From UHGV virus genome UHGV-2204638: DNA of 36,601 bases. The stretch is one strand, 5' to 3'. Origin of the DNA: a virus. Shown here piece by piece: positions 1,593-18,023 of the stretch. The notes under the pieces are model-generated. The model ran no database searches. It was not told the DNA's origin and was given only the letters and a program-made list of their open reading frames with translations. Position numbers and translations under genes: made by a program. Within the stretch, counting starts at the first letter, position 1, and every line of letters begins with the position of its first letter.

Positions 1593-1610
1593 TCATAGCT
1601 GGTGCTTTTT

Positions 1611-1640
1611 GAAAACCCGCCTTCAGGCGGGTTTTTTCTT
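1611..1640. terminator. Bidirectional rho-independent terminator
   Basis: gaaaacccgcc-ttca-ggcgggttttttc with A-tract upstream and T-tract downstream, sitting between the convergent genes ending at 1592 (+) and 1640 (-). Confidence 0.6.
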
Positions 1641-1921
1641 TAGTGATGTTCTTTGCCCTTCTGTTTGCCTGTTCTGACCTGTTCCCACTCGATACGTCCT
1701 TCTTCTCGTCTTTTGTCTATGTATTCCGCAAGATCCTGAATATTGATGCAACGTTTTGCTTTTTGTGATGTGCCGATGCGATATGTTGGAACGGGCAACT
1801 TACAAGCGTTTGCTTTTGCTTCTGCCGTGGCTGGACTCATGCCAAAGTACTTCTGGCTAACTGCTGAGAGTTCAATGTTAGGGGTATTGAATTCAGCCAT
1901 CAGTAAAAACAAGGTGTTCAT
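1640..1921 (-). CDS. PrtN/AlpA-type excisionase-like DNA-binding protein
   Basis: N-terminus MNTLFLLMAEF... is typical of PrtN-family excisionase-like prophage proteins (from memory). Start chosen at the ATG at 1921, which has GGAG 8 nt upstream; the track ORF extends to 1948 with a GTG. Confidence 0.6.
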   Translation of the reverse strand: MNTLFLLMAEFNTPNIELSAVSQKYFGMSPATAEAKANACKLPVPTYRIGTSQKAKRCINIQDLAEYIDKRREEGRIEWEQVRTGKQKGKEHH

Positions 1922-1957: not shown

Positions 1958-2530
1958 TCATAATTCTGTGCTGGTGGCAGGAATTAGTTTCTGCCAGATA
2001 GCGGAAACATATTTTGCCTGATGACGGGCATCAGCCAGGGCGTTGTGCCGTTCGCCATCGAAAGGCATGTCCATTTTTGGGTCGAATCCGATGGAACGCC
2101 CAAGCGTAATGATCGTGCGTACATCGTGGTCATTCCAGTACGCCCACGGGCAGATTTGTCCTGCTCGCTCGTAAGCTCCACGTAAAATTACGTTGTCGAA
2201 GGTGGCCCCGTTACCCCAGACTTTTAAATATTTTGTATTGTCTGCATGCTGATTAATGAAATGGCTCAGTTCAGAGAGTGCATCGCTGATCGACAAAGTA
2301 TCATCAATACAGATTGCAGCTCGTGCTTCAGAGCTCTGTTTCAACCACCACAGGATGGTATCGCCGTCAGGTGTAGCTCCTTGCTCCATAGCACTTTCCA
2401 GGCTAACAACCGTATAGAATTCTTGTTCGATGTCTCCGGTTTCTGGAGTGAAGAACACCGCGCCAATGGAAACGATCGGTGCATCCTTATTTTTCCCCAT
2501 CGTCTCAAGGTCGATCATTAAGTTATTCAT
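1958..2530 (-). CDS. DEDD-type 3'-5' exonuclease
   Basis: 190 aa; the MIDLETMG N-terminal motif and later acidic and H-x-A-x-x-D motifs fit DnaQ-like exonuclease motifs I-III. Confidence 0.6.
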   Translation of the reverse strand: MNNLMIDLETMGKNKDAPIVSIGAVFFTPETGDIEQEFYTVVSLESAMEQGATPDGDTILWWLKQSSEARAAICIDDTLSISDALSELSHFINQHADNTKYLKVWGNGATFDNVILRGAYERAGQICPWAYWNDHDVRTIITLGRSIGFDPKMDMPFDGERHNALADARHQAKYVSAIWQKLIPATSTEL

Positions 2531-3231
2531 TACTTCACCTCCTGCGGCGGTTCCGGTAGCGGCATCCAGTGAGTTGCTTGCTCAATACCATTACCCGGCT
2601 TAATCGTTGCATCTCCGCGCCGAAAGGTGCTTCCGGTATAGCGTGCGGAGCATATTAGCGGTTCAACCAGAGAGCTATCGAAATTCACTGAAATAAGCAC
2701 GTTCTGATTCTTTTCCGGCATTCGATCACTACAGCTTATCCAACCATCCGGAGTTACCGGAGAGTTGCCACCGTGAATATTTTCCGGAATATTTTGTTGT
2801 GCGTTTTGTGGTTGTTCGGATTTACCCTGAAGCATAGCGGCACGGCAGGCGTTCCAGCCTCTCACCTCTGCAATAGCGGCAAAAGCATCAACCGCGTACA
2901 TGCTAAGAGGATTAGGCATTGGTTTTTCTTCCGGTACTACTGGCACTGGAGGGGCGGCATAAAACTTCGTCCCCAGCGGCAACAACTTCATCGCTTTTTC
3001 TCCCTTAATGATGCGATAAGTTGATTTCCCGCCAAGGTCTACCGTTCCATCCATAACAAGGCCGAGTCGCTTCTCTGAAACCTCACCAATAGGCTCTGCT
3101 TCCAGCGATGCCAGAGCAATTCGTGCCAGTTCTTCCGCTTCTTCTGCTGGCAGTACAACGTTGCTACCAGGTCCGTATGTTTCGCGCCACTGCTTGATTG
3201 TCAGCAGTCGCTCTTTGGTAATAGTGATCAT
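2530..3231 (-). CDS. Phage protein with DUF551-like C-terminus
   Basis: 233 aa; start overlaps the stop of the downstream gene; C-terminal HWMPLPEPP motif. Confidence 0.5.
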   Translation of the reverse strand: MITITKERLLTIKQWRETYGPGSNVVLPAEEAEELARIALASLEAEPIGEVSEKRLGLVMDGTVDLGGKSTYRIIKGEKAMKLLPLGTKFYAAPPVPVVPEEKPMPNPLSMYAVDAFAAIAEVRGWNACRAAMLQGKSEQPQNAQQNIPENIHGGNSPVTPDGWISCSDRMPEKNQNVLISVNFDSSLVEPLICSARYTGSTFRRGDATIKPGNGIEQATHWMPLPEPPQEVK

Positions 3232-3307
3232 GCCGCGTTTCCTTCTTTCTTATTAACAATTACACCGTCATATATTTCATTAAGGTGCCCTCTCAACTCC
3301 ATGCGCC

Positions 3308-3742
3308 TTAATGCAGATAACATGTAATCGCATTCAACCTGCTTATTTCCAGTAAATGGCTTATCGTCAGGATTACCCCAACAGCAATTACCCTTGGGCA
3401 CCCATGCACTTTCCGTACTCTTCCGTTAACAACGTGAAGTAATCCCCAGCCAGGTGGTAAATCCTCAATTGAAATAATTCCCGGCTCACTAATAAAGAAT
3501 CGCCAGTCGCCCATTCCAAGAGACGGATTTTTACGAAAACGCTTTTTTCTATCTGCCAACAAGTCAGCACGAGAACATTTCGCCTCTATCAGGCATGATG
3601 CTGAATTTCTGAATCCCATAGCATCTGGCTGTTCTCCGGTACTGGTTACAGCTATAAAGCGGTCATGAAAACAAACCTTGAACCCGTTGCGCTTAAGGAA
3701 CTTGTACGCAATCTGACAGAGTTCGCGGTGTGTTAACGCCAT
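3308..3742 (-). CDS. PD-(D/E)XK nuclease-like protein, possibly frameshifted at the 3' end
   Basis: QPDAMGF...CLIEAK matches a PD...(D/E)xK signature. The last ~45 aa look non-protein-like and an alternative frame (3388..3570) is open. Confidence 0.4.
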   Translation of the reverse strand: MALTHRELCQIAYKFLKRNGFKVCFHDRFIAVTSTGEQPDAMGFRNSASCLIEAKCSRADLLADRKKRFRKNPSLGMGDWRFFISEPGIISIEDLPPGWGLLHVVNGRVRKVHGCPRVIAVGVILTISHLLEISRLNAITCYLH

Positions 3743-3743
3743 A

Positions 3744-4136
3744 TCACTCTCCTTTGATGCGAATGCCAGCGGCGCGGATTGCAGCGATGACCTCAGAAAC
3801 TTTGTATGCCATTACCGTTTGGTAATCCTCGTGAAAATCTGTTCGATGAAGCATGCTGCTAAGTTCTGGGAGCGATATTTCCCGCGCTTCCAGTTCTGCA
3901 ATGCGCTTCTCTGCGGCTTCCAGCGCATTTACCAGATCATCAACGATTCCAGCAGATTGGCGTGCGTAATCTGTAATTGCCAGCTCGCATTCAATTTCAG
4001 TTCCGTTTTCGTTTGTGTGGCAAATAGCAAAGTAATCGGAGTCGATTTCGTTATCAGCCAAACGCCTCAGCGTGTCGGCAACCAGCACTCCGTTTTCAAT
4101 CAGCATCTCTGTTGCGCGTTTGTTGATGTTGCTCAT
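3744..4136 (-). CDS. Hypothetical phage early protein
   Basis: 130-aa ORF in a chain of overlapping stop/start codons. Confidence 0.45.
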   Translation of the reverse strand: MSNINKRATEMLIENGVLVADTLRRLADNEIDSDYFAICHTNENGTEIECELAITDYARQSAGIVDDLVNALEAAEKRIAELEAREISLPELSSMLHRTDFHEDYQTVMAYKVSEVIAAIRAAGIRIKGE

Positions 4137-4891
4137 TGGGCGGCCTCCTGGCGGTCTATGCGTTCAATTTCGGCCAGAATAAGTGCGCCAGCTTTCACAA
4201 GGTCACGACGCGGCCCAGATTGCTTCCACCAATCAGGAGCCCACGGCCAATGCGCTGGCGTTGAGAGGCCTTGATTGTGTGCGTTAATCGCATAGCAAGC
4301 TGCAGCATCTGCCAGCTCACTGTTTTGATAGGCGTCGTCATGCTCAGACGTCCAGCCCTCAACGGCTTTCTGCCGCTGGCGCTCTGCTATCACATCTAGA
4401 ATTGCAGGATTGAACGTCCGCGCCTCCAGTTCTGCTATTTGATTCTCTGCTGCGTAGAGTTTGCGCTTCAGTTCTACGTTTTCCTCAGAAAGAGATACCG
4501 CTGCCTCCCAATTAACGATCCCCTCATGGCAGGCCTCCTGATATGCCGTCAGCACAACATCAAACAGATTGCCATCCTGTAGCAGCTTAGCCAGTTCAGG
4601 CTTCCAGGCTACGCAGTCATCATCAGGGTCCTGCATGTTGTAGACGTAAGTATCAAAGGCACCCATCAAGCGCCCGAATCCACCTTTGTCGTCTACCAGC
4701 ACTTGCCAGGCACGGAGAAGAAACAGTTTTTGATTACGATCTAAATCCGTCCGGGATAGTTCATCGGCGATAATGCTGATTTCACTACCGTTCCAGCGAG
4801 CGTCATTCCGTTGTGCCGCATGAAACAACTTCCAGAAATACTCGGTTTCTTCTTGGTCCGGGCGGCATTGCTTCAGTGTATGGACTGTCAT
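4133..4891 (-). CDS. Hypothetical phage early protein (Ea22/DUF550-like C-terminus)
   Basis: 252 aa; C-terminal HWPWAPDWWK...AGALILAEIERIDR resembles a conserved prophage C-terminal domain (from memory). Confidence 0.45.
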   Translation of the reverse strand: MTVHTLKQCRPDQEETEYFWKLFHAAQRNDARWNGSEISIIADELSRTDLDRNQKLFLLRAWQVLVDDKGGFGRLMGAFDTYVYNMQDPDDDCVAWKPELAKLLQDGNLFDVVLTAYQEACHEGIVNWEAAVSLSEENVELKRKLYAAENQIAELEARTFNPAILDVIAERQRQKAVEGWTSEHDDAYQNSELADAAACYAINAHNQGLSTPAHWPWAPDWWKQSGPRRDLVKAGALILAEIERIDRQEAAQ

Positions 4892-5205
4892 GCTGCACCG
4901 CCTTCAACGTTACGTAACCAGATGCATACCGCGCCATCTTCGGTGTTGTGAATTGAACCGACAAACCAACCTTCACCGGCTGGCGATTCTGGCTGCCAGG
5001 CTGAAATATCGTAACCATCAACTTCAGGATCGATGTCTTCTTCATCCCGGTAAACTACCGTCCATTCGAGGCCGTTTTTATCCAGCCAGGCGTTGAACTC
5101 ATCAGGTGAGATAAATTCACGACCATCGCAAAATTGCTCATAGACGGGGTGAGTCCAGTAGCCGTATTGGTCGCGTTCTACTGGTAATGCCGTAAATTTG
5201 CTCAT
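4888..5205 (-). CDS. Hypothetical phage early protein
   Basis: 105 aa, overlapping-stop operon member. Confidence 0.45.
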   Translation of the reverse strand: MSKFTALPVERDQYGYWTHPVYEQFCDGREFISPDEFNAWLDKNGLEWTVVYRDEEDIDPEVDGYDISAWQPESPAGEGWFVGSIHNTEDGAVCIWLRNVEGGAA

Positions 5206-5456
5206 TGGGCTGCTCCTTTGCGGACGTTTCGCAGAAGCTGGTTAAATATCAGCGTTAAGTTATTGCTGCATCCAAACGGCAGATCATTGACGCGGTATGT
5301 CGGTATCCCACCGCGTGCGCCAGACTTAACAATTCTCCCTGTTGCATAAAGCTGAGATAGTGCGCTGGCTACGGCTGGCGTCTTTTTACCCATCGCCCTT
5401 GCGATTTCACCGCTGGTGGCGTTCGGGTGGCCCTGGAGATATTCAAATACGGTCAT
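5202..5456 (-). CDS. Small winged-helix DNA-binding protein
   Basis: 84 aa; TSGEIARAMGKKTPAVASALSQLYATGRIVK looks like a wHTH. Confidence 0.45.
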   Translation of the reverse strand: MTVFEYLQGHPNATSGEIARAMGKKTPAVASALSQLYATGRIVKSGARGGIPTYRVNDLPFGCSNNLTLIFNQLLRNVRKGAAQ

Positions 5457-5620
5457 TGCGTTTTACCTTTACGTTCCTGTTCCAGTTGCGCCAATGATTC
5501 GGTTAATGCTGCGAACGTAGCTTCAAGCCTGGTAGCGACTTCGCGCATAAGCGATGCATGCTTTGGTGGCAATTCAGCCACGGAGGCAAACGCCTCCGCC
5601 ACGAGTTCTTTTACCTTCAT
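5453..5620 (-). CDS. Small hypothetical protein (55 aa)
   Basis: ORF MKVKELVAEAFASV... read from sequence, below the track cutoff. Its start and stop overlap the neighbouring genes in ATGA fashion at both ends. Confidence 0.4.
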   Translation of the reverse strand: MKVKELVAEAFASVAELPPKHASLMREVATRLEATFAALTESLAQLEQERKGKTQ

Positions 5621-6156
5621 GCGGCGCATTGACGCTGCTCCATCAACTCATTAAAGCGATTTATGAACATGCCGTATGACTGGCCTGGACGAACTGGATT
5701 GATGATGAATAGGTCCGTCGGGACAACGCCATCGAGGCATGGCCACACGGAACCTTCGTCAATCTCAAAATCGCGGCGTTCGCTGGCGAGCATCACCAGA
5801 TCGGCATATTTCACTGTTGGGTGTTGCTCCGTCGGTAGGCCAAATTTCTGGCGAATAGCAGCGTCTACGCGAGCTTCGATCACCTGGTAATCCGGTAACA
5901 GGCGCTTAAGCGGTGAGGGAATATCTTGCAGGTAGGCTTCGGCGGCATCATGAAGCAGTGCTTCTAAGGCAAACTCCTGCGGAACGAGATGGCTGGTTAA
6001 AACGCTATGCTGGCCGACGCTGTAAAACTCAGGAAGATGCCCTGCAAAGCGGCAGATATGAGACAACGCGGTAGCAATATCCTCGATCACGATATCGTCC
6101 TGTTGGATATCGAGGTAATTAAAATGTTTGCCGGATAATGTCTGAATGTAGCTCAT
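5617..6156 (-). CDS. HD-domain phosphohydrolase
   Basis: ALLHDAAEAY contains the HD motif. Start chosen at the ATG at 6156 with GGAG upstream. Confidence 0.6.
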   Translation of the reverse strand: MSYIQTLSGKHFNYLDIQQDDIVIEDIATALSHICRFAGHLPEFYSVGQHSVLTSHLVPQEFALEALLHDAAEAYLQDIPSPLKRLLPDYQVIEARVDAAIRQKFGLPTEQHPTVKYADLVMLASERRDFEIDEGSVWPCLDGVVPTDLFIINPVRPGQSYGMFINRFNELMEQRQCAA

Positions 6157-6264
6157 GGTTTTCTCCATATTGGCGCGCTGCACCGCGCCATTAAATTAAT
6201 GAATTGCTGAATTTAGCGTGCAGCAACCCAACCCATGCTTATGGGGGTAATTGTTGCCTGGTGT

Positions 6265-7182
6265 TTATCGCTTGGCTTCGCCGCCGAGAGAGGTTGTTAA
6301 TCCGTTAATGAGAGAGATAAGCTCGCCGGTCATCAGAACAAAGTCAGCGTCGAACCTCTGAGCCGCATCCTCACGGTCGATATCGTCGTTTTGTTCTGTA
6401 ATCTCATTAGAGAACTTAAGGCGTTTGATGCTGCCGTCATCGCAAAGAACGAACTGAATGCGCTGTTGCCAGTCGATAGACAGCTTTGTAACTACTTTGC
6501 CAGCTTCCAGATGCACATGAATTTCGTCACTGACCAGAGTCTGTTTTTTAAAGCGTCCAATACCACCATCTTCAAGAATAGCTTTCAGTTCGGCTTCATC
6601 ACCCAGGCCAAAGCCAGCAGGCGCACTACCGGAACGAACCCATTCGGTCATAGTTAGTTCGATCGGCGTTTCCATAGTCAGCGGTACCACCGGGAGAGAA
6701 CCGAGAGTTTTACGAAGCAGGGCCAGTGAGTCTTCGGCACGTTTAGCGCTGGCTGCATCAACCATGATCAGACCGTCGGTGACGTTGATCCACAAACTAA
6801 CAGTCGAGTTTTTGGAGAACGCCCGAGGAAGCAGGGAGTGCAACACTTCATCACGCAGCGAATCTTTCTCAGTTTTTTTGAGGCGACGCCCCTGATCGGA
6901 TTCCAGACGCGACACACGCTTGCGCAGTTCTTCAGCAATGACAGGAGATGGCAGTATTTTTTCTTCCCGGCGAATAACCAACAACACTTGATTATTGACA
7001 GTGTGATGCAAGCGATCTGACAGCTGACCAAGTGGTGATACCCAACCGGTTTTTGCCATATCCTGGCTACCGCATGGAGTGAAGCGAAATAGTTCAAGCT
7101 GCTGTTCCAGCTCTTCCTGGTTGATGGTGAAATCGCGATTAATGCGATACACCAACATATTTTTGAAAAACGGATTGTTCAT
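6265..7182 (-). CDS. rdgC: Recombination-associated protein RdgC homolog
   Basis: 305 aa, collinear and strongly similar to E. coli RdgC as recalled ([42 protein letters not shown]). Confidence 0.9.
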
Positions 7183-7339
7183 TCTCGGTTCCTCAACGCC
7201 TCTGCACCGGCGCTAAAAAGTTAGTTTCTCCATACACAACAGAGAAGGGCACCTGCATTGGTCGGCGGCTTGCAGAGACCGCTTTCTTTTTGCCCGGGTG
7301 GATTGGGTTATGAGCCCGTCGCCCGGTGATGCCCTTTTC

Positions 7340-7401
7340 TGTTGTGCCCTGAAAAAGGCTGGCGGTTACCGGAAATACACGGGAAAACACCGGGCCGCCA
7401 G
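7340..7401 (-). terminator. Putative tL1-like intrinsic terminator after the first leftward gene
   Basis: On the minus strand a 7+4 bp GC-rich hairpin (ctggcgg..ccgg / ccgg..ccgccag, 7359..7401) is followed within 3 nt by a run of five U; it lies in the 270-bp untranslated gap before rdgC. Confidence 0.4.
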
Positions 7402-7494: not shown

Positions 7495-7692
7495 ATGGGC
7501 GCTTTTGATAACCAGGAAATTACGTTACCCGCATGCCCTAAGTGCGGCACTAAGACGAAGAAGAAAATCGCTTGGCTCAAGTCGAACAAAAGTTTCACTT
7601 GTCGATGTGGAGCTACTATCAATGTCAACAGCAGCCAGCTTACTTCCGAAATCAGGAAGGTTGAGGACAAGCTGAAGAAGCTCTTTAAATAG
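7495..7692 (+). CDS. Small zinc-ribbon protein (65 aa), antisense to the 3' part of the ClpX-zinc-finger gene
   Basis: AAGAGGG RBS 7 nt before the ATG at 7495; CPKCG...(15 aa)...CRCG four-cysteine motif; lysine-rich C-terminus; a plus-strand terminator follows. Confidence 0.4.
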   Translation: MGAFDNQEITLPACPKCGTKTKKKIAWLKSNKSFTCRCGATINVNSSQLTSEIRKVEDKLKKLFK

Positions 7693-7890
7693 TTTTTTAT
7701 CGACTGATATTATTTCGTTATCAGAGGTTGGTTTTTCAGCCTCTGATTTTTTAGTCAGGATCATTTTTTCTACACATGTGACTACGCATTCCGAACAGAT
7801 GGCAGGTTCGTCCTTACCACCTTTTGCGACGATCTTTATCGCTCCCAGTTCGGTTGCTCCGCAAAATGAGCATGTGAATAAATGATTCAT
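7525..7890 (-). CDS. ClpX-type zinc-finger protein, first gene of the leftward operon
   Basis: CSFCG...(16 aa)...ICSECV matches the ClpX N-terminal C4 zinc-finger pattern. ATG at 7890 has GAGG 7 nt upstream. The C-terminal half is low-complexity and overlaps the plus-strand ORF 7495..7692. Confidence 0.5.
   Translation of the reverse strand: MNHLFTCSFCGATELGAIKIVAKGGKDEPAICSECVVTCVEKMILTKKSEAEKPTSDNEIISVDKKLFKELLQLVLNLPDFGSKLAAVDIDSSSTSTSETFVRLEPSDFLLRLSAALRACG
7720..7752 (+). terminator. Rho-independent terminator, plus-strand specific
   Basis: 8-bp stem atcagagg/cctctgat with a 12-nt loop, then six T; the reverse complement has no U-run. Confidence 0.5.
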
Positions 7891-7994
7891 GTAAACCTCT
7901 ACCCCCAACCTAAGTTTTCTGTCAGCGAATCATCCGGTCATTCATACGCCACCGGCGGCTACTTCGTGGGCGTCCTGCCTGTTCGTTACTGCAA

Positions 7995-8050
7995 CATCTT
8001 TAAGTTGTAATCTAGTTGTTGTTTTGGTTGTTGTCAACAACTTTATGTGG
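7995..8050 (-). promoter_or_regulatory. Leftward early promoter (pL-like) with operator-like palindromes
   Basis: The minus strand reads TTGACA (plus 8032..8037), a 17-nt spacer, then TAGATT (plus 8009..8014). The palindrome GTTGTTG-T-CAACAAC and AAGTTGT repeats overlap the promoter. Confidence 0.4.
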
Positions 8051-9055: not shown

Positions 9056-9304
9056 ATGACACCTGAGCAATTAGCCTTATCAGAGGCAATCGCTCTGGCT
9101 GGTGGTCAATCAGAATTGGCTCGGAAGCTCACAGCCAGCAGTGGTCGTTTAGTAAAGCAACAACATGTCTGGAACTGGTTGAACAGAGAAAAGCGTCCCC
9201 CTGCAAAACTCTCGATATTTATTGAAATGACCACTGGCGTATCAAAAGAAAAATTACGTCCAGATATTTTTCAAAAGATTAAAGACTTATCAGATGGAAA
9301 GTAA
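9056..9304 (+). CDS. Cro-like HTH regulator (YdaS-type)
   Basis: 82 aa; position divergent from cI; LALSEAIALAGGQSELARKL HTH; AGGAGA RBS. Confidence 0.75.
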   Translation: MTPEQLALSEAIALAGGQSELARKLTASSGRLVKQQHVWNWLNREKRPPAKLSIFIEMTTGVSKEKLRPDIFQKIKDLSDGK

Positions 9305-9326
9305 CCACAGTTTTAAGGAGATAGCC

Positions 9327-9878
9327 GTGGGTAAGCATCACTGGAAAGTAGAAAAACAGCCTGAGTGGTACGTGAAAGCTGTCAGAAAAACTATCGCGGC
9401 GTTGCCGGGTGGTTACGCTGAAGCTGCTGACTGGCTGGATGTAACAGAGAACGCATTATTTAACCGCCTTCGTGCCGATGGCGATCAGATTTTCCCGCTG
9501 GGATTGGCAATGGTTTTGCAACGTGCTGGTGGAACTCACTTCATTGCTGACGCTGTGGCGCAGTCTGCAAATGGCGTCTTTGTGTCTCTTCCTGACGTCG
9601 AGGATGTGGACAACGCCGATATTAACAAGCGCCTGCTGGAAGTCATTGAACAGATTGGCAGTTATTCCAGACAGATTCGTTCGGCAATCGAAGACGGTGT
9701 GGTGGAACCGCATGAGAAGACAGCAATTAACGACGAGCTGTATCTCTCAATTTCGAAGCTGCAGGAGCATGCAGCACTGGTCTACAAAATCTTTTGCATT
9801 TCAGAAAGTAATGACGCCCGCGAGTGTGCAGCTCCGGGCGCCGTGGCGTGTCGTGACTGTGGAGAAACTAACGCATGA
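9327..9878 (+). CDS. YdaT-like / CII-family regulatory protein
   Basis: Position after cro; resembles Rac YdaT-type proteins (from memory). Start chosen at the GTG at 9327 with AAGGAG 7 nt upstream; the track ORF starts at the ATG at 9294 with no RBS. Confidence 0.6.
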
Positions 9879-10213
9879 ACAGTTTAACAACACACTACCG
9901 TCGCTCGCAACTGATTGCGCTTCCTGTACCGGGTGGAAAAGCGAAGGTGGAGTATTGCTATGCAGTGAATGTACCAGGTGACAGGGAAATTGTAACCCAC
10001 AGCTTTGCCGAGTGGGCTGTGGGTGATTTCAACCGGCAGAAGGAGACAGTCCTTTGCAACAAGTTAACCGCTGGTTCAAAGATCACTACTGAGTGCCCGT
10101 CAGAGTCATTCGTTGGGAGCCGGAAACACAACGTGTTATCTACCTCCGTGAAGGCTATGAGCATGAATGCTTCAGTCCGCTCGAACAGTTTCGTCGTAAA
10201 TTCAGGGAAATAG
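9875..10213 (+). CDS. Hypothetical protein, possible frame disruption
   Basis: 112-aa ORF; its last ~25 aa look non-protein-like while an overlapping frame (10093..10233) reads [35 protein letters not shown]. Confidence 0.3.
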
Positions 10214-10222
10214 GGGTCGGTC

Positions 10223-11164
10223 ATGAGCACTAAATTAACCGGCTATGTATGGGATGGTTGTGCAGCGTCAGGTATGAAATTATCCAGCGTGGCAATTATG
10301 GCCCGCCTGGCTGATTTCAGTAATGACGAAGGTATGTGCTGGCCATCAATTGAAACCATTGCCCGCCAGATTGGCGCGGGGATGAGCACCGTCAGAACGG
10401 CTATCGCACGGCTGGAAGCAGAAGGCTGGTTAACGCGTAAGGCGCGTCGCCAGGGTAACCGCAATGCGTCGAATGTTTATCAGCTTAACGTTGCGAAGCT
10501 TCAGGCAGCGGCATTTTCTCAACTGTCAGATTCTGACCCGTCAAAATCTGACGCATCAAAATCTGACCCGTCAAAATTTGATGCGTCGAAATCTGGCAAA
10601 AAATCGGGTTTTCACCCGTCAGAATCTGGCGGGGATCCGTCAGTAAAATCAAAACATGATCCGTCAGATAAAAAACCTTCTCGTCCGGACGCTTCGCAAC
10701 CGGACACGCAGACGGCTGAACAGGATTTTTTAACTTGCCATCCTGATGCGGTTGTATTCAGCCCTAAAAAGCGCCAGTGGGGAACGCAGGATGATTTGAC
10801 CTGCGCACAGTGGCTCTGGAAAAAAATCATCGCCCTGTACGAGCAGGCTGCCGAATGTGACGGCGAGGTGGTTCGTCCCAAAGAACCGAACTGGACAGCC
10901 TGGGCAAACGAAATTCGCCTGATGTGTGTGCAGGATGGTCGTACTCACAAACAAATCTGCGAGATGTACAGCCGCGTCAGCCGCGATCCGTTCTGGTGCC
11001 GTAACGTGCTCAGCCCGTCGAAGCTGCGGGAAAAATGGGATGAGCTTTCCCTGCGCTTATCGCCGTCCGTCAGCACGTACACAGAAAAACGCGAAGACCC
11101 GTACTTCAAAGCCAGTTACGACAATGTGGACTACAGCCAGATCCCGGCAGGATTCAGGGGGTGA
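10223..11164 (+). CDS. Phage replication initiation protein (O-like, N-terminal wHTH)
   Basis: 313 aa; N-terminal winged-helix domain typical of phage initiators; an internal array of direct repeats encodes a low-complexity S/D/K/P linker. Confidence 0.65.
   Translation: MSTKLTGYVWDGCAASGMKLSSVAIMARLADFSNDEGMCWPSIETIARQIGAGMSTVRTAIARLEAEGWLTRKARRQGNRNASNVYQLNVAKLQAAAFSQLSDSDPSKSDASKSDPSKFDASKSGKKSGFHPSESGGDPSVKSKHDPSDKKPSRPDASQPDTQTAEQDFLTCHPDAVVFSPKKRQWGTQDDLTCAQWLWKKIIALYEQAAECDGEVVRPKEPNWTAWANEIRLMCVQDGRTHKQICEMYSRVSRDPFWCRNVLSPSKLREKWDELSLRLSPSVSTYTEKREDPYFKASYDNVDYSQIPAGFRG
10525..10670. repeat. Iteron-like direct repeats (candidate origin) inside the initiator gene
   Basis: At least six tandem copies of CCGTCA(A/G)AATCTG(A/G)C-like units, followed by an A-rich stretch. 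Confidence 0.55.
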
Positions 11165-11655
11165 GCATGAGTCTTTTGAATGACGTTCAGAAATTCATTG
11201 AAGCCCATCCGGGCTGTACTTCCGGAGACATTGCGGATGCTTTTGCAGGTTACTCACGGCAGCGCGTTCTGCAGTCAGCAAGCAAGTTACGTCAGAGTGG
11301 TCGTGTGGCTCACCGTTGTGAAGGAGATACACACAGACATTTCCAGCGCCTGACTGAGAGAGCGCAGGATCCGGAACCACAACCAGTTCGTGAAACCAGA
11401 CCTGTGCGCAATTTCTATGTCGGCACTAACGACCCGCGGGTGATTTTGTGCCTGACCCGCCAGGCGGAAGAACTGGAGTCCAGGGGCTTATACCGTCGTG
11501 CTGCAACGGTGTGGATGGCGGCATTCCGTGAAAGCCACTCCCAGCCAGAACGAAACAATTTTCTGGCGCGTCGTGAACGGTGTTTACGGAAAAGCAGTAA
11601 GCGGGCTGCATCAGGTGAAGAGTGGTATCTGTCAGGGAATTACGTGGGGGCTTAA
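11161..11655 (+). CDS. Putative PerC-family regulator with N-terminal wHTH
   Basis: EELESRGLYRRAATVWMAAF resembles the PerC/Pch conserved core (from memory); occupies the position after the initiator. Confidence 0.4.
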   Translation: MSMSLLNDVQKFIEAHPGCTSGDIADAFAGYSRQRVLQSASKLRQSGRVAHRCEGDTHRHFQRLTERAQDPEPQPVRETRPVRNFYVGTNDPRVILCLTRQAEELESRGLYRRAATVWMAAFRESHSQPERNNFLARRERCLRKSSKRAASGEEWYLSGNYVGA

Positions 11656-12308
11656 TGAGTAATAAATATTGCCAGGCGCTGGTGGAACTGCGGAACAAAC
11701 CAGCCCATGAACTGAAGGAAGTGGGCGATCAGTGGCGCACGCCGGACAACATTTTCTGGGGAATTAACACCCTGTTTGGCCCGTTTGTTCTGGATCTGTT
11801 CACTGACGGTGATAACGCCAAATGTGCCGCGTATTACACGGCGGAAGACAACGCGCTGGCGCATGACTGGTCAAAACGTCTTGCGGAGCTTAAAGGGGCT
11901 GCCTTTGGTAATCCCCCATACAGCCGCGCCAGTCAGCATGAGGGGCAATACATCACCGGCATGCGTTACATCATGAAACATGCCAGTGCCATGCGTGATA
12001 AGGGCGGGCGCTATGTTTTCCTGATCAAAGCTGCCACCAGCGAAGTGTGGTGGCCGGAAGATGCGGATCATATTGCTTTTATTCGCGGGCGTATTGGTTT
12101 TGAACTGCCTGCCTGGTTTATCCCGAAGGACGATAAGCAGGTGCCGACAGGCGCTTTCTTCGCTGGCGCTATTGCTGTTTTCGACAAGACCTGGAAGGGA
12201 CCGGCAATCAGCTACATCGGGCGTGATGAACTTGAGGCATGTGGTGAGGCGTTTCTGGCGCAGGTTCGCCAGCAGGCGGAAAAACTGGTCAGGGAGATGG
12301 CGGCATGA
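11655..12308 (+). CDS. Phage Dam-type N6-adenine DNA methyltransferase (orphan)
   Basis: NPPYS catalytic motif. Start chosen at the ATG at 11655, which overlaps the upstream stop as TAATG; the track ORF starts at 11622. No restriction-enzyme partner is adjacent. Confidence 0.8.
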   Translation: MSNKYCQALVELRNKPAHELKEVGDQWRTPDNIFWGINTLFGPFVLDLFTDGDNAKCAAYYTAEDNALAHDWSKRLAELKGAAFGNPPYSRASQHEGQYITGMRYIMKHASAMRDKGGRYVFLIKAATSEVWWPEDADHIAFIRGRIGFELPAWFIPKDDKQVPTGAFFAGAIAVFDKTWKGPAISYIGRDELEACGEAFLAQVRQQAEKLVREMAA

Positions 12309-12631
12309 CGACGTTAACTCAATGCCAGCAGCAGGTGCTGGATATGCTGATTTCTTACCAGAAAGAACGTGGCTTCCCGCCAACCAATCAGGAGGTGGCA
12401 ACCATGCTGGGATACCGTTCAGTGAATGCAGCGGTGGAGCATCTTCGCGCACTGGAGAAAAAAGGCGTCATCACGATAAAGCGTGGCGTGGCCCGGGGGA
12501 TCACGCTTCATACCGCAGTGAAGGACGACGACAGCGAAGCGGTCGGTATCATCCGCGCACTGCTTGCCGGTGAGGAGAACGCCAGGTTGCGTGCAGCCCA
12601 CTGGTTACATGAGAGGGGCTTGAAAGTATGA
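12305..12631 (+). CDS. LexA N-terminal-domain-like DNA-binding protein without peptidase domain
   Basis: 108 aa; QQQVLDMLISYQKERGFPPTNQEVATMLGYRSVNAAVEHLRALEKKGVI resembles the LexA winged-helix domain. Confidence 0.55.
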   Translation: MTTLTQCQQQVLDMLISYQKERGFPPTNQEVATMLGYRSVNAAVEHLRALEKKGVITIKRGVARGITLHTAVKDDDSEAVGIIRALLAGEENARLRAAHWLHERGLKV

Positions 12632-13017
12632 AGTTGATCCTTCCTTTCCCGCCCAGTGTGAACACGTACTGGCGACACCCCAACAAAGGGGCATTTGCTG
12701 GTAAGAGCCTGATAAGCGAGGCGGGGCGAAAATTCCAGAGCGCAGCGTGTGCAGCCATCATTGAGCAGTTACGTCGTCTGCCGAAACCAACGTCGGCACC
12801 AGCTTCAGTGGAGATCGTGTTGTTTCCTCCGGATAACCGGCTTCGCGATCTGGACAACTATAACAAGGCGCTGTTTGACGCCCTGACCCACGCGGGTGTG
12901 TGGGTGGACGACAGCCAGGTGAAAAGAATGCTGGTGGAGTGGGGGCCGGTTATCCCGGAAGGGAAGGTCGAAATCACTATCAGTAAGTACGAGAAAACGG
13001 CGGGTGCAGCCGCCTGA
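12628..13017 (+). CDS. rusA: RusA Holliday-junction resolvase
   Basis: PPSVNTYW and DLDNYNKALFDAL match RusA-family motifs. Confidence 0.85.
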   Translation: MKLILPFPPSVNTYWRHPNKGAFAGKSLISEAGRKFQSAACAAIIEQLRRLPKPTSAPASVEIVLFPPDNRLRDLDNYNKALFDALTHAGVWVDDSQVKRMLVEWGPVIPEGKVEITISKYEKTAGAAA

Positions 13018-13036
13018 TTAAGAGGAGAAACGAAGT

Positions 13037-13846
13037 ATGAATAATCTGATGGTTATTGATGGTATTGAAGTTCGTCGTGATGCTTATGGGCGTTACAGCC
13101 TGAACGATCTGCATCGCGCAGCAGTAGCATCTGGTGCAAATGCCAGAACCAAGGAGCCAGGAAAGTTTCTTTCCAGCCAACAAACTGTTGAGCTTGTTCA
13201 TGAATTAACCAACACCCAGAATTTGGGTGTTGACCCGGTGAGTGTGATTCATGGGGGAAATGAACGGGGAACGTATGTCTGTAAGGAACTGGTGTATGCC
13301 TATGCAATGTGGATCAGCCCGTCATTCCATCTGAAGGTGATCCGTACTTTCGATATGGTAACCAGCGCACCGGAAAAATTATCCGGACAGGCTGCTGACA
13401 AGATGCAGGCTGGCGTGATTCTGCTGGACTTTATGCGCCGGGAGTTAAATCTGTCTAACTCATCTGTGCTTGGGGCCTGTCAGAAACTCCAGGAGGCTGT
13501 TGGCTTACCGAATCTGGCACCGCGCTATGCCATTGATGCACCTGCTGACGCGCCTGATGGCTCAAGCCGCCCGACGCTGTCGCTGAGTGCACTGCTGAAG
13601 CAGTATGGTATCCGCCTGACGGCTAATCAGGCATATCACCAGATGGTGAAGCTGGGGATCGTCGAGCAGCGCGAACGATACAGCCGTACCGGGATTAACA
13701 ACATCAAAAAATTCTGGTCGCTGACGGCGAAAGGCTGCATGTTCGGCAAGAACATCACCAGTCCCGCAAATCCGCGTGAGACGCAGCCGCATTTCTTCGA
13801 ATCCCGATTCCCTGAGCTGTTAAAGCTGCTCGATACCGTTCATTGA
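13037..13846 (+). CDS. KilA-N domain protein (antirepressor-like)
   Basis: The N-terminal ~100 aa (GRYSLNDLHRA...YAYAMWISPSFHLKVIRTFD) fit the KilA-N domain; strong AGGAG RBS. Confidence 0.7.
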   Translation: MNNLMVIDGIEVRRDAYGRYSLNDLHRAAVASGANARTKEPGKFLSSQQTVELVHELTNTQNLGVDPVSVIHGGNERGTYVCKELVYAYAMWISPSFHLKVIRTFDMVTSAPEKLSGQAADKMQAGVILLDFMRRELNLSNSSVLGACQKLQEAVGLPNLAPRYAIDAPADAPDGSSRPTLSLSALLKQYGIRLTANQAYHQMVKLGIVEQRERYSRTGINNIKKFWSLTAKGCMFGKNITSPANPRETQPHFFESRFPELLKLLDTVH

Positions 13847-13847
13847 G

Positions 13848-14843
13848 GTGACCGTGAGAGCACTACTGACCCCTGAAATAGCCCCGCGTATGGGGATTGT
13901 ATTGTTCAGACCAGGTTCAGAGCTGATGCCCCTGTTTATGCAGGGGCGTGTCCTGCTGGAGCCTGAGCCGGAACGTTATTCATCTTTCGCCAGTGGTGCC
14001 GTTCCGGCGGCATCACAACCGCTGGCGGATGATCCTGCCGTTAGGGCCGTGTTCCGCAATGAGGCAGTGATCCGTCGTGCTGGTGGCGTGGAATGTCTTG
14101 AAAGCTGGTTACTTCGTGAAAAAGGCTGCCAGTGGCCTCATTCCGACTGGCACAGCGAGAACATGACCACAATGCGACACGCGCCGGGCGCGATCCGTCT
14201 GTGCTGGCACTGCGATAACCAGCTGCGCGATCAGTTCACGGAACGGCTGGAATCAATGGCAACGGATAACTGTGCCCGCTGGGTGTTGTCTGTAGTCCGT
14301 CTGGATCTCGGTTTTGATGATAACCATGCCGTGACAATGCCGGAACTGTGCTGGTGGCTGATTCGTAATGACCTGGCGGATGCCTTACCGGAAAGTGCAG
14401 CCCGTAAGGCACTGAGATTACCGAAGCCTGTTGTGCCGTCTGTCACCCGGGAAAGTGACCTTGTGCCTTCGGTTCCTGCCACCAGCATCATCCAGGATAA
14501 GGCGAAAAAGGTGCTGGCGCTGAAAGTGGATCCGGAGTCGCCGGAGTCTTTTATGTTACGCCCAAAACGTCGCCGCTGGGTTAATGAAAAGTACACGCGC
14601 TGGGTTAAGACACAGCCGTGTGCATGTTGTGGAAAGCCTGCTGATGATCCCCACCACCTGATAGGCCACGGTCAGGGGGGAATGGGTACAAAAGCGCATG
14701 ACCTCTTTGTGTTGCCTTTGTGCAGAAAGCATCACGACGAGCTGCATGCGGATACCGTGGCATTTGAAGAGAAGTATGGCTCCCAGCTGGAGCTGATATT
14801 TCGTTTTATCGATCGTGCGCTGGCAATAGGCGTGCTGGCCTGA
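13848..14843 (+). CDS. DUF968-like prophage protein with C-terminal Cys/His cluster
   Basis: CACCG...HHLIGHG...H...C..HH..H cluster resembles the DUF968 family found in nin regions (from memory). Confidence 0.5.
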   Translation: MTVRALLTPEIAPRMGIVLFRPGSELMPLFMQGRVLLEPEPERYSSFASGAVPAASQPLADDPAVRAVFRNEAVIRRAGGVECLESWLLREKGCQWPHSDWHSENMTTMRHAPGAIRLCWHCDNQLRDQFTERLESMATDNCARWVLSVVRLDLGFDDNHAVTMPELCWWLIRNDLADALPESAARKALRLPKPVVPSVTRESDLVPSVPATSIIQDKAKKVLALKVDPESPESFMLRPKRRRWVNEKYTRWVKTQPCACCGKPADDPHHLIGHGQGGMGTKAHDLFVLPLCRKHHDELHADTVAFEEKYGSQLELIFRFIDRALAIGVLA

Positions 14844-14860
14844 TTTTGTGGAGAAAGTTG

Positions 14861-15232
14861 ATGCGTGATATTCAAATGGTTCTTGAACGTTGGGGGGCAT
14901 GGGTGGCAAATAATCACGAGGATGTGGAATGGTCATCTGTTGCTGCAGGTTTTAAGGGATTAATTCCTTCGAAAGTAAAATCCCGCCCGCAATGTAGCGA
15001 TGACGATGGCCTGATCATTAGCTCTGCGATGACAGTTCTTAAGAAAAAGGAACCGTATCAATACGAATTACTGGAAATGTATTATGTGTATGGGGTTACA
15101 TTACGGGCGTTGGGGGTAAAACTGGGGATATCACTTAATCAGGTTGTTATCAGACTGCAGAAAGCTGAAGGGTTTATTGACGGTTGTCTGGCAATGTTGG
15201 GGGTATCTTTAGAAATTGATTGTTACATATAG
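14861..15232 (+). CDS. Q: Late-gene antiterminator Q (QuuD-type)
   Basis: MRDIQMVLERWGAW..NNHEDV.WSS.AAGFKGL..SKVKSRPQC is near-identical to the DLP12 QuuD N-terminus as recalled. ATG at 14861; the track ORF begins at a TTG at 14846. Confidence 0.8.
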   Translation: MRDIQMVLERWGAWVANNHEDVEWSSVAAGFKGLIPSKVKSRPQCSDDDGLIISSAMTVLKKKEPYQYELLEMYYVYGVTLRALGVKLGISLNQVVIRLQKAEGFIDGCLAMLGVSLEIDCYI

Positions 15233-15307
15233 TAATAAATTCAATCAAAGTAAATAATCATATTTTATTATAACCTCCTGATGATACCTGTTCATTGGGA
15301 GGTTATT

Positions 15308-15925: not shown

Positions 15926-16054
15926 TTTTATGTTTGGTATTCAGAGTTCGCCGTGCTTAAGAAAGTCAAGATTCTAAAAATACTGAATGAGCTACTTGTG
16001 TTATAACAAAAATGCTATTAGTGTGTTAAGAGTGGTTACTTCGCCACACAACTT

Positions 16055-18020: not shown

Positions 18021-18023
18021 TTT

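What the first reader, a model, noticed from the sequence alone, without database searches (positions are those of the whole stretch)
1958..7182. Early-left operon rich in DNA-metabolism genes (exonuclease, PD-(D/E)XK nuclease, HD hydrolase, RdgC) instead of a recET or red system
The genes are chained by overlapping stop/start codons (for example ATGA overlaps at 5453..5456 and 5617..5620), implying translational coupling. RdgC is a host-type recombination modulator unusual as phage cargo, and the HD hydrolase could act on nucleotide pools or signalling nucleotides, which would be relevant to counter-defence. No SSAP-type recombinase was recognised.
Basis: partly seen in the sequence, partly recalled or inferred. 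Interest (0 to 1): 0.45.

Follow-up and report, generated by a model that had tools for sequence, protein, structure and literature searches.

The report
Prophage early-left operon lacking recombinase
This is the early leftward operon of an E. coli lambda-like prophage that carries no recombination genes of its own and is instead packed with correctly oriented Chi sites for the host RecBCD enzyme, a type of phage described in 2025, so the finding is real but mostly ordinary.

Summary
Window 1958-7182 is a tight chain of ten minus-strand genes with six ATGA stop/start overlaps. The four annotations are right:
- RdgC: Pfam 6e-116, 67% identical to E. coli RdgC.
- HD protein: 63% identical to the K-12 prophage protein YfdR.
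- DnaQ/DEDDh 3'-5' exonuclease.
- MmcB-like PD-(D/E)XK nuclease.

No annealing protein, 5'-3' exonuclease or RecBCD inhibitor was found anywhere in the window.

- The PD-(D/E)XK gene is a frameshifted pseudogene.
- The operon starts further right, at a PL promoter (8037-8009) flanked by operators. A zinc-ribbon ORF and a terminator-like, conserved structured leader lie upstream of rdgC.
- The window holds 20 Chi sites (1.5 expected), 17 on one strand. Twelve of those sit in the 11 kb just left of the terminase genes.
- This is the "no Rec module, Chi-rich" lambdoid class of Genome Res 2025, which already notes RdgC, DnaQ-type and YfdR-type (called yfbR there) genes in such operons.

RdgC is also not unusual phage cargo: it occurs in 355 phage records, including P1 HrdC. 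Nothing supports a counter-defence role for the HD protein.

Verdict: a new member of a known kind, of modest interest.

The parts
7992..8050 (-). OL operators (CAACnnCTnnAnGTnG at 7992-8007 and 8035-8050) flanking the PL promoter (-35 TTGACA 8037-8032, -10 TAGATT 8014-8009)
   Evidence: The same 16-mer recurs in the cI-cro gap at 8970-8985, with variants at 8945-8960 and 9021-9036. It is the only minus-strand promoter-like site in 1500-9300. The mosaic joint with the hetero-immune relative falls at 7988.
7525..7908 (-). First PL gene: ClpX-type C4 zinc-ribbon protein (PGAP start at 7890), function unknown
   Evidence: Pfam zf-C4_ClpX 8.4e-6, 26.0 bits, just under the 27-bit cut-off. phrog_20296 3.9e-68. 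Weak matches to the ClpX N-domain in PDB. Present in F1055 and Phi06_2987; not found in LLS, phiNP, SfII or KpF5.
7351..7401 (-). GC-rich hairpin (CTGGCGG...CCGCCAG) followed by CCUUUUUC; resembles an intrinsic terminator and lies between the zinc-ribbon ORF and rdgC
   Evidence: Read from the sequence and from folds. Every homologous leader has a hairpin of different sequence plus U5-6 at the same place. LLS shows compensatory changes.
7235..7346 (-). Conserved long RNA hairpin (~112 nt) with an invariant inner hairpin, directly upstream of rdgC
   Evidence: Inverted repeat I5: 17-nt arms, 94% complementary. Leader fold z = -3.3. Conserved in LLS, phiNP, F1055, SfII and Phi06_2987, with 5 of 36 pairs compensatory. 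No Rfam match. Unlike HK022 putL.
6265..7182 (-). RdgC homologue (305 aa)
   Evidence: PF04381 6.1e-116; NCBIfam NF001460 513 bits against a 501 cut-off. 67% identical to K-12 RdgC without gaps. Residues shown to matter in E. coli RdgC are kept: R97, K100, K101, R118, F120, Q212, E218, H222 and K227, with K98 replaced by R (alignment against PMC2965237).
5617..6156 (-). YfdR-type HD-domain protein (179 aa; an alternative GTG start lies at 6183)
   Evidence: 63% identity to K-12 CPS-53 YfdR over the full length. phrog_318 3.7e-98. PDB 2gz4 2.8e-13. H33, H69-D70 and the ADL aspartate are present. The Pfam YfbR-like match is below its cut-off (20.6 against 25.9).
5453..5629 (-). 58-aa ORF, unknown function (alternative start at 5620)
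   Evidence: phrog_12248 2.1e-32; no Pfam family at E <= 0.01.
5202..5456 (-). 84-aa winged-helix protein
   Evidence: phrog_1687 (MarR-like) 3.7e-24. Pfam MarR_2/HTH_24 matches are below their cut-offs.
4888..5205 (-). 105-aa ORF, unknown function
   Evidence: phrog_1372 7.7e-48.
4133..4891 (-). 252-aa protein: N-terminal domain, Ea22-like coiled coil, and a C-terminal helical domain of unknown function
   Evidence: Only PHROGs of unknown function. 2876 homologues, all hypothetical. AF2 gives a confident helical C-terminal domain. No PDB fold match. Matches only uncharacterised phage proteins in BFVD.
3744..4136 (-). 130-aa Ea22-like coiled-coil protein (PGAP: ead/Ea22-like, N-terminus missing)
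   Evidence: phrog_1667 3e-26; PGAP annotation of the 99.7%-identical locus.
3228..3742 (-). MmcB-like PD-(D/E)XK nuclease gene, inactivated by a 1-nt deletion in the Trp115 codon (between 3399 and 3398)
   Evidence: Intact relatives are 171 aa. The two halves lie in different frames. D40, E53 and K55 are invariant. AF2 pLDDT 84.6. Foldseek top hit is 3dnx at E 1e-5, followed by Hjc, HincII and R2 endonucleases. PGAP flags the gene as frameshifted.
2530..3231 (-). DUF551 protein (233 aa; shares the DUF551 domain with YfdS)
   Evidence: PF04448 4e-22. YfdS of CPS-53 carries DUF551 (PMC4776307).
1958..2530 (-). DnaQ-like DEDDh 3'-5' exonuclease (190 aa)
   Evidence: PF16473 2.5e-74. phrog_255. 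PDB 8kel exodeoxyribonuclease 3.5e-9. PADLOC DEDDh 1.8e-5. Motifs IDLET, FDN and H-x4-D are present in the sequence.
1640..1921 (-). PrtN-family excisionase-like gene, last gene of the operon
   Evidence: PF11112 3.1e-23; phrog_1300 excisionase 1.1e-39.
1611..1636 (.). Bidirectional terminator-like hairpin at the end of the operon
   Evidence: 11-bp stem flanked by A and T runs.
9098..18475 (+). Cluster of 12 co-oriented Chi sites (GCTGGTGG) in the immunity, early-right and lysis region, just left of the terminase genes (19273-21506). Five more plus-strand sites lie at 1970, 5412, 21646, 22002 and 27944. Only three are on the minus strand.
   Evidence: 20 sites against 1.5 expected; none of 100 shuffles reached 20. 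Density, strand and segment statistics.

Best explanation
The region is most of the PL (early-left) operon of a temperate lambda-like prophage inserted in dusA.

Transcription and layout:
- Transcription starts at PL (about 8005) under repressor control.
- It passes a zinc-ribbon ORF and a terminator-like hairpin plus a conserved structured leader.
- It then runs through rdgC, a yfdR-type HD gene, three small ORFs, two Ea22-like coiled-coil genes, a dead MmcB-like nuclease gene, a DUF551 gene, a DnaQ-type 3'-5' exonuclease and an excisionase.
- It ends at the hairpin at 1611-1636.

Recombination:
- The operon contains no phage recombination module: no annealing protein, no 5'-3' exonuclease, no SSB and no RecBCD inhibitor.
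- Inferred: the phage outsources recombination-dependent replication and concatemer formation to host RecBCD and RecA.
- It would do so through 17 co-oriented Chi sites concentrated to the left of cos, as shown experimentally for phage LLS.

The listed genes:
- They are mosaic accessory genes, not a substitute recombinase.
- RdgC most likely acts, as in E. coli, as a ring-shaped DNA-binding dimer that restrains RecA filaments and co-protease activity on phage or host DNA early after induction or infection (inferred).
- The YfdR-type protein is a weak dNMP phosphatase and/or DnaA binder that may damp host replication initiation (inferred from the K-12 homologue).
For: Shown here:
- OL/PL placement puts rdgC downstream of PL.
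- Gene identities are established.
- The tested early-left and early-right ORFs of the window contain no SSAP, Exo, RecE or Gam. They do include RusA and a DUF968/HNH protein.
- The exonuclease is of 3'-5' DEDDh type, the wrong polarity for a Red-alpha/RecE partner.
- There are 20 Chi sites against 1.5 expected by shuffling and about 8 at the K-12 genome density (P = 2e-4). The strand split is 17:3 (P = 0.003). Density is 1.34 per kb in the 11 kb left of the terminase genes.
- The isolated phages F1055 (Salmonella) and KpF5 (Klebsiella), which carry the closest RdgC copies, are Chi-rich and oriented: 14+/2- and 18+/0-. F1055's early-left ORFs contain no SSAP in PHROGs; KpF5's annotation lists no recombinase.
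- F1055 has the same frame: cI, zinc-ribbon ORF, RdgC, YfdR-type, variable ORFs, DUF551, DnaQ exonuclease, xis, int.
- LLS has repressor, leader, yfdP, yfdQ, YfdR-type, small ORFs, DnaQ exonuclease, xis, int, and shares the leader sequence.

From the literature:
- LLS grows less well without RecBCD. Rec-less lambdoid phages are Chi-rich near the right end. RdgC, DnaQ-type and YfdR-type (called yfbR there) genes occur in such early-left operons and are not counted as Rec-module genes (PMC12315714).
- RdgC inhibits RecA strand exchange, ATPase and LexA cleavage (as cited in PMC11077077).
- YfdR binds DnaA (PMC4776307).
Against: - Dependence on RecBCD and RecA is inferred by analogy and has not been tested for this phage.
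- Resident prophages could pick up Chi passively, a caveat the 2025 paper itself raises. The density of 2.5 times the host level and the clustering next to cos argue against that.
- A RecA inhibitor in a phage that needs RecA is paradoxical and unexplained.
- RdgC-bearing phages are not uniformly Chi-rich or recombinase-free: SP069 has 0 Chi, EPP-1 has 0, and PdC23 has an Erf protein and 8 Chi.
- Six ORFs have no assigned function, so an unrecognised recombination protein cannot be formally excluded.
- Two genes are degraded, so this particular prophage may be partly decayed.
Confidence: 0.8

Rival explanations
1. The exonuclease, PD-(D/E)XK nuclease, RdgC and perhaps some unknown ORFs together form a new phage recombination or repair system that functionally replaces Red or RecET.
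For: All are DNA-acting proteins in the operon position where Rec modules normally sit. Six ORFs remain uncharacterised.
Against: - The exonuclease has 3'-5' DEDDh polarity.
- The PD-(D/E)XK gene is frameshifted here and independently in other database copies.
- The genes are separated by unrelated ORFs and assort independently. Only 1 of 5426 E. coli genomes has the whole 5.2-kb arrangement, while pieces occur in 2972.
- The 2025 survey finds these gene types near int or near cI, often together with canonical Rec modules.
- The 252-aa protein has no SSAP-like fold.
- Chi enrichment points to use of the host pathway.
Confidence: 0.06
2. The operon is chiefly a host-takeover or counter-defence cluster. 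The HD enzyme would degrade defence-signalling nucleotides or dNTP/dNMP pools, and RdgC would shield phage DNA or block RecA-dependent or DNA-sensing defences.
For: The genes are expressed early. HD enzymes can act on nucleotides. The K-12 homologue YfdR interacts with a host protein, DnaA. Overexpressed host rdgC triggered a retron toxin/antitoxin system in one screen.
Against: - No PADLOC or anti-defence family match except a generic DEDDh hit.
- YfdR has low nucleotide affinity and no reported defence phenotype.
- The HD protein is a common lambdoid accessory gene found in CPS-53, LLS, SfII, F1055 and ST64B.
Confidence: 0.08
3. RdgC here is a RexA-like immunity-region gene, expressed from the prophage with cI and acting in exclusion or in the lysis-lysogeny switch, as suggested for lambdoid RdgC homologues in PMC12315714.
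For: RexA and RdgC share a fold (PMC11077077). rdgC lies about 1 kb from cI on the same strand.
Against: In this window the OL operators and PL (7992-8050), a whole ORF and a terminator-like hairpin lie between cI and rdgC. No promoter-like site was found directly upstream of rdgC. rdgC is therefore a PL gene, repressed in the lysogen.
Confidence: 0.07
4. The region is a decaying, non-functional remnant of a cryptic prophage with no current biology.
For: There are two degraded genes: a frameshifted nuclease and a truncated Ea22-like gene.
Against: - The other eight ORFs are intact, with preserved overlaps and Shine-Dalgarno sequences.
- The window has complete-looking regulatory, lysis, terminase and structural genes.
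- Close relatives occur as a 43.7-kb circular molecule in assemblies and as the isolated phage F1055.
Confidence: 0.1

Closest known systems
Phage LLS and the 'no Rec module, Chi-rich' class of lambdoid phages (Genome Res 2025, PMC12315714)
   Same: - Lambdoid gene order.
- Early-left operon without SAP, nuclease, SSB or anti-RecBCD genes.
- YfdR-type phosphatase and a DnaQ-like exonuclease next to xis.
- No N homologue.
- Shared leader sequence downstream of PL (79-80% identity).
- Chi at about 2.5 times host density, strongly co-oriented and concentrated near the right end (LLS 20 vs 3; this window 17 vs 3).
   Different: - LLS has yfdP-yfdQ where this phage has a zinc-ribbon ORF and rdgC.
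- LLS integrates at ssrA, this one at dusA.
- Different immunity, and myovirus-type tail genes as in F1055.
- RecBCD dependence has been shown for LLS only.
Salmonella phage F1055 (OP745618.1)
   Same: Same frame of the early-left operon: repressor, ClpX-type zinc-ribbon ORF, leader, RdgC (71% identity), YfdR-type HD, variable small ORFs, DUF551 protein, DnaQ exonuclease, xis. Similar right operon (O-like, PerC-like, Dam, RusA). 14+/2- Chi.
   Different: The middle ORFs differ (mosaic). int lies next to xis. The host is Salmonella. No PD-(D/E)XK or Ea22-like genes were identified in the F1055 early-left ORFs tested.
E. coli K-12 cryptic prophage CPS-53 (KplE1) yfdP-yfdQ-yfdR-yfdS-yfdT-torI cluster
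   Same: Same kind of early-left operon remnant. YfdR is 63% identical to the HD protein. YfdS carries DUF551, like ORF 2530-3231. A recombination directionality factor sits at the end.
   Different: CPS-53 has no rdgC, exonuclease or nuclease gene and is defective. yfdQ/yfdP are absent from this window.
E. coli RdgC and phage P1 HrdC
   Same: Full-length, ungapped 67% identity to RdgC, with the interface and fingertip residues conserved. 55.7% identity to the P1 hrdC product. P1 also needs host recombination and is Chi-rich (PMC12315714).
   Different: Encoded in a repressor-controlled phage early operon. No biochemical or genetic data exist for any phage copy.
Lambda Red (Exo, Beta, Gam) and Rac RecET
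   Same: Same operon position in lambdoid genomes.
   Different: None of the defining components is present.

Membership tests
Lambdoid phages without a Rec module and rich in Chi (LLS functional type) | Lambdoid regulatory layout: divergent PL/PR with shared operators around a cI-type repressor, cro/cII-like genes, an O-like gene, Q, then lysis and terminase genes | tested here: met
Lambdoid phages without a Rec module and rich in Chi (LLS functional type) | No single-strand annealing protein, Rec-module nuclease, SSB or anti-RecBCD gene | tested here: met
   Pfam, PHROG and NCBIfam scans of the early-left and early-right ORFs. Fold searches of the 252-aa protein. Six ORFs remain of unknown function.
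Lambdoid phages without a Rec module and rich in Chi (LLS functional type) | Many Chi sites, mostly on the strand that is active for RecBCD entering from the right end, concentrated near that end | tested here: met
   20 sites against 1.5 expected; 17 plus to 3 minus; 12 plus-strand sites in 9.1-18.5 kb, left of the terminase genes at 19.3 kb. The window does not contain the whole phage.
Lambdoid phages without a Rec module and rich in Chi (LLS functional type) | Growth aided by host RecBCD | not testable with these tools
   Needs plating or burst assays on recB, recC, recD and recA hosts.
RdgC (PF04381 / NF001460) | Full-length match above the curated thresholds | tested here: met
   387 bits against 25 (Pfam); 513 bits against 501 (NCBIfam equivalog).
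RdgC (PF04381 / NF001460) | Residues required for ring dimer stability and DNA loading (F120, K227, Q212, E218, fingertip R97/K98/K100/K101) | tested here: met
   All are conserved in the ungapped alignment, with K98 replaced by R (one search read against PMC2965237).
RdgC (PF04381 / NF001460) | DNA binding as a toroidal dimer; inhibition of RecA; rescue of priA rdgC synthetic lethality | not testable with these tools
   Biochemistry and genetics are needed.
YfdR / YfbR-type HD 5'-deoxynucleotidase | H...HD...D metal-binding motif and full-length similarity to YfdR | tested here: met
   63% identity over 178 aa. H33, H69-D70 and the downstream Asp are conserved.
YfdR / YfbR-type HD 5'-deoxynucleotidase | Match to the Pfam YfbR-like model or the NCBIfam 5'-deoxynucleotidase equivalog above the cut-off | tested here: not met
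   20.6 bits against 25.9 (Pfam); 16.8 bits against 122 (NCBIfam). It belongs with YfdR, not with YfbR proper.
YfdR / YfbR-type HD 5'-deoxynucleotidase | dNMP phosphatase activity; DnaA binding | not testable with these tools
   Known only for the K-12 protein (PMC4776307).
PD-(D/E)XK nuclease, MmcB-like | Restriction-endonuclease-like fold with a D...E-x-K motif | tested here: met
   D40, E53 and K55 are invariant in 32 homologues. Foldseek hit to 3dnx at E 1e-5, TM 0.59/0.67. A profile hit to the same chain covers the motif.
PD-(D/E)XK nuclease, MmcB-like | Intact reading frame | tested here: not met
   1-nt deletion in codon 115. The C-terminal 56 residues are out of frame.
DnaQ-like DEDDh 3'-5' exonuclease (Rv2179c-like) | Full-length Pfam match and the Exo I-III motifs | tested here: met
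   PF16473 249 bits. D7/E9, the FDN motif and H-x4-D are present.
Lambda Red / RecET recombination module | SSAP (Beta, RecT, Erf, Sak or Sak4) with a 5'-3' exonuclease and usually a RecBCD inhibitor | tested here: not met
   No such family was matched by any tested ORF.
RexA-like gene of the immunity (cI) transcript | Located between cI and OL/PL, co-transcribed with cI | tested here: not met
   OL/PL lie between cI and rdgC.
HK022-type put antitermination RNA (for the leader) | Sequence or structure similarity to putL/putR | tested here: not met
   No similarity to the HK022 PL-nun interval and no Rfam match. Function was not tested.

The most novel reading that the evidence does not exclude
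Two linked possibilities remain open.

1. The phage RdgC may be an early-expressed tuner of host RecA. It could suppress RecFOR-loaded filaments and RecA co-protease activity while leaving RecBCD-Chi-loaded RecA usable. That would be adaptive specifically for phages that outsource recombination, such as this prophage, F1055, KpF5 and P1.

2. The conserved two-part leader upstream of rdgC (GC hairpin plus U-tract, then a ~112-nt hairpin with an invariant inner loop) is shared by N-less lambdoid phages: LLS, phiNP, SfII, F1055, and, for its 55-nt core at least, mEp460 and SfV. It may be a new cis-acting RNA element that controls read-through or processing of the early-left transcript.
Probability: 0.15. 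Interest if true: 0.55.

Novelty: new member of a known kind. Interest (0 to 1): 0.25.

Why it matters
The region adds one more clear example, found blind from raw sequence, of a lambdoid phage that has given up its own recombinase and instead carries oriented Chi sites. It also settles, for this phage, that rdgC is a PL gene rather than part of the cI transcript.

The open questions are modest but testable:
- Why does a RecA-dependent phage carry a RecA inhibitor?
- How do these N-less phages read through the terminator-like leader?

None of this overturns current understanding.

Tried and rejected
1. Rfam scans of the whole window at gathering thresholds, and of 6100-9400 at E <= 1, found nothing.
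2. I compared the leader with HK022 putL. I located nun, PL and cI in HK022 and found no similarity.
3. Fold search of the 252-aa protein against PDB gave no significant match. BFVD gave only uncharacterised phage proteins and a weak MazG-like hint, probability 0.51. My early guess that its C-terminal domain is DUF550/MazG-like is not supported.
4. A PADLOC scan of ten proteins returned only a generic DEDDh hit.
5. I tested whether RdgC-bearing phages are generally Chi-rich and recombinase-free. That holds for F1055 and KpF5, but not for SP069 (0 Chi), EPP-1 (0 Chi) or PdC23 (has Erf). I dropped it as a general rule.
6. I tested whether the zinc-ribbon ORF could be a general N analogue. It was not found in LLS, phiNP, SfII or KpF5, so this was rejected.
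7. I first took the window to be the prophage of strain 97.3. That is wrong for 7989-9813, which is a different immunity module. No complete E. coli genome in the collection holds the exact window.
8. Supplementary tables of PMC12315714 are not held, so its per-phage classification could not be consulted.

Full report
**Where the window comes from.**
- The 5.2-kb finding is 99.9% identical to a prophage of E. coli O68:H12 strain 97.3. That prophage lies next to a truncated dusA fragment.
- The identity holds for window 1-7988 and again from 9814. The stretch 7989-9813 (operators, cI, cro) is a different immunity module.
- No complete E. coli genome in the collection contains the exact window.
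- A related element is present as a 43.7-kb circular record in strains AH02 and CT01, with the match beginning at window 435. Relatives therefore excise.
- The rest of the window carries cro/cII-like, O-like, PerC-like, Dam, RusA, KilA-N, DUF968/HNH and Q genes, then lysis genes, terminase and structural genes. This is a lambdoid temperate phage.

**The observation.**
- Ten minus-strand ORFs fill 1958-7182.
- Read directly from the sequence, the junctions are ATGA at 5620-5617, 5456-5453, 5205-5202, 4891-4888, 4136-4133 and 3231-3228, TAATG at 2530, and a 1-nt spacer at 3743.
- The 58-aa ORF more probably starts at 5629, which has a GGAG upstream and is PGAP's choice.
- Most overlapped starts have their own Shine-Dalgarno sequence inside the upstream gene.
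- The pattern is real, but it is equally common in the right operon and the structural genes of the same phage. It says "phage operon", nothing more.

**Gene identities.**
- RdgC (6265-7182):
  - Pfam 6e-116, and above the NCBIfam equivalog cut-off.
  - 67% identical to K-12 RdgC without a gap.
  - Every residue shown by Briggs et al. to matter for the ring interfaces and the DNA-loading fingertip is conserved, with K98 replaced by R.
- HD protein (5617-6156):
  - 63% identical to YfdR of the K-12 cryptic prophage CPS-53.
  - It falls below the YfbR-specific model cut-offs.
  - YfdR has much lower nucleotide affinity than YfbR. It binds DnaA and moderately inhibits the DiaA-DnaA and DnaB-DnaA contacts (PMC4776307).
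- Exonuclease (1958-2530): a DEDDh 3'-5' enzyme (PF16473, 2.5e-74; PDB exodeoxyribonuclease 8kel, 3.5e-9).
- ORF 3308-3742:
  - It belongs to a 171-aa family with invariant D40, E53 and K55.
  - An AlphaFold model of an intact member (pLDDT 84.6) matches the MmcB-like protein 3dnx at E 1e-5, followed by Hjc, HincII and R2 endonucleases. The PD-(D/E)XK call is therefore right.
  - In this window a G is missing from the Trp115 codon. The last 56 residues lie in another frame, and PGAP flags the gene as frameshifted.
- Remaining ORFs:
  - A DUF551 protein, sharing that domain with YfdS.
  - Two Ea22-like coiled-coil proteins.
  - A small winged-helix protein.
  - Two ORFs of unknown function.
  - The 252-aa protein has a confident helical C-terminal domain with no PDB match and only uncharacterised phage relatives.

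**Operon boundaries.**
- A 16-mer, CAACnnCTnnAnGTnG, occurs at 7992-8007 and 8035-8050. It recurs in the cI-cro gap at 8970-8985, with variants.
- Between the two left copies lies the only minus-strand promoter-like site of the region: TTGACA, 17 nt, TAGATT. This is OL/PL.
- The first PL gene is a ClpX-type zinc-ribbon ORF (7908-7525).
- Next comes a 342-nt structured leader (fold z = -3.3). It has a GC hairpin with a U-tract (7401-7351) and then a ~112-nt hairpin (7346-7235).
- rdgC follows. It is therefore a PL gene. For this phage that contradicts the suggestion in PMC12315714 that lambdoid rdgC may ride on the cI transcript like rexA.
- The operon ends after the PrtN-type excisionase at a bidirectional hairpin (1611-1636).

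**No recombinase, and why.**
- None of the early-left or early-right ORFs matches an SSAP, Exo, RecE, SSB or Gam/Abc2 family.
- The only recombination-related gene is RusA, alongside a DUF968/HNH protein.
- The window contains 20 Chi octamers against 1.5 expected from shuffles and about 8 at K-12 density (P = 2e-4). Seventeen are on the plus strand (P = 0.003).
- Twelve of those lie in the 11 kb between the immunity region and the terminase genes. That is the DNA RecBCD would traverse when entering from the right end after cos cleavage.
- This is the signature described for phage LLS and 71 other Rec-less lambdoid phages. LLS has 20 versus 3 Chi at 2.5 times host density and grows less well without RecBCD (PMC12315714).
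- LLS also shares the leader sequence, the YfdR-type gene and the DnaQ-like exonuclease next to xis.
- Salmonella phage F1055 has the same frame, including the zinc-ribbon ORF and RdgC, and 14+/2- Chi. Klebsiella phage KpF5 has 18+/0-.
- The paper explicitly lists RdgC homologues and DnaQ-type nucleases as early-left genes that are not Rec-module members, and separately notes YfdR-type (yfbR) genes as common in such operons.

**How unusual is RdgC in a phage?**
- It is uncommon but well precedented: 355 of 50,697 phage records. These include P1 (hrdC), ICP1, many Vibrio and Pseudomonas phages and the 9NA-like virulent phages.
- This allele with its leader occurs in 33 of 5426 complete E. coli genomes, including Nissle 1917.
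- The whole 5.2-kb arrangement occurs once, while fragments occur in 2972 genomes. That is typical mosaicism.

**Mechanism.**
- Shown: gene content, promoter placement, absence of Rec genes, and Chi enrichment and orientation.
- Inferred by analogy with LLS: recombination-dependent growth through host RecBCD and RecA.
- Inferred from E. coli RdgC (RecA strand exchange, ATPase and LexA cleavage inhibited): the phage copy restrains RecA early in the lytic programme or during establishment of lysogeny. A similar idea has been voiced for host rdgC induced by lambda infection.
- How this squares with a need for RecA is unknown.
- I tested a general RdgC-Chi link and it fails outside the E. coli, Salmonella and Klebsiella lambdoid trio.

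**Comparison and verdict.**
- The closest relatives are the LLS-type lambdoid phages, F1055 and the CPS-53 yfd cluster.
- The emphasis on RdgC rarity and on an HD counter-defence role is not supported.
- The nuclease pseudogene and the Chi signature were missed.
- This is a new member of a known kind. Interest is modest at 0.25.
- The residual novelty lies in the untested role of phage RdgC and in the conserved leader RNA.

Noticed in passing
window 7235-7401 (minus strand): Two-part leader upstream of rdgC: a GC-rich hairpin plus U-tract, then a ~112-nt hairpin with an invariant inner hairpin. The same layout occurs downstream of PL in LLS, phiNP, F1055, SfII and Phi06_2987, with terminator stems of different sequence. 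The 55-nt core is in about 260 E. coli genomes and about 48 phage records. There is no Rfam family, no similarity to HK022 putL, and no N homologue in the window.
   Followed up: partly
window 7525-7908 (minus strand): The first gene after PL encodes an acidic protein with a ClpX-type C4 zinc ribbon. It is shared only with F1055 and Phi06_2987 among the relatives examined. Its function is unknown; it could be a ClpX-related mimic or adaptor.
   Followed up: partly
window 7989-9813: The immunity module (OL/PL, cI, cro and the 5' end of the cII-like gene) is unrelated to that of the otherwise 98-99.7% identical prophage in strain 97.3. The mosaic joint falls exactly at OL.
   Followed up: yes
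window 435-545; NZ_CP081704.1 and NZ_CP081794.1: The left prophage end abuts a 35-codon dusA fragment, and no integrase lies next to the excisionase. A related element is deposited as a 43.7-kb circular record in strains AH02 and CT01, so relatives excise. The integrase is presumably beyond the right end of the window.
   Followed up: partly
window 3228-3742 and proteins P0001, P0002, P0019-P0022: Besides this copy, several database members of the 171-aa PD-(D/E)XK family are 144-aa products; the one retrieved (P0002) is frameshifted at a different site into the same alternative frame. This may reflect recurrent inactivation or sequencing errors at G runs; it was not resolved.
   Followed up: partly
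window 686-1222, 1419-1592 and 15281-15925: Low-GC (0.39-0.40) plus-strand ORFs at the att-proximal end and downstream of Q (phrog_4350, phrog_2741, phrog_8498; all of unknown function). They look like morons.
   Followed up: no
window 11622-12308 and 16556-17608: Two DNA methyltransferase genes: a Dam-like N6-adenine enzyme in the early-right operon, and a second one between Q and the lysis genes.
   Followed up: no
L013 (Pantoea phage PdC23) 34718-35617: Here the RdgC homologue sits in the early-right operon after the helicase loader. It coexists with Erf, NinB/Orf and a Ref-like nuclease, so phage RdgC is not tied to recombinase-less genomes.
   Followed up: yes
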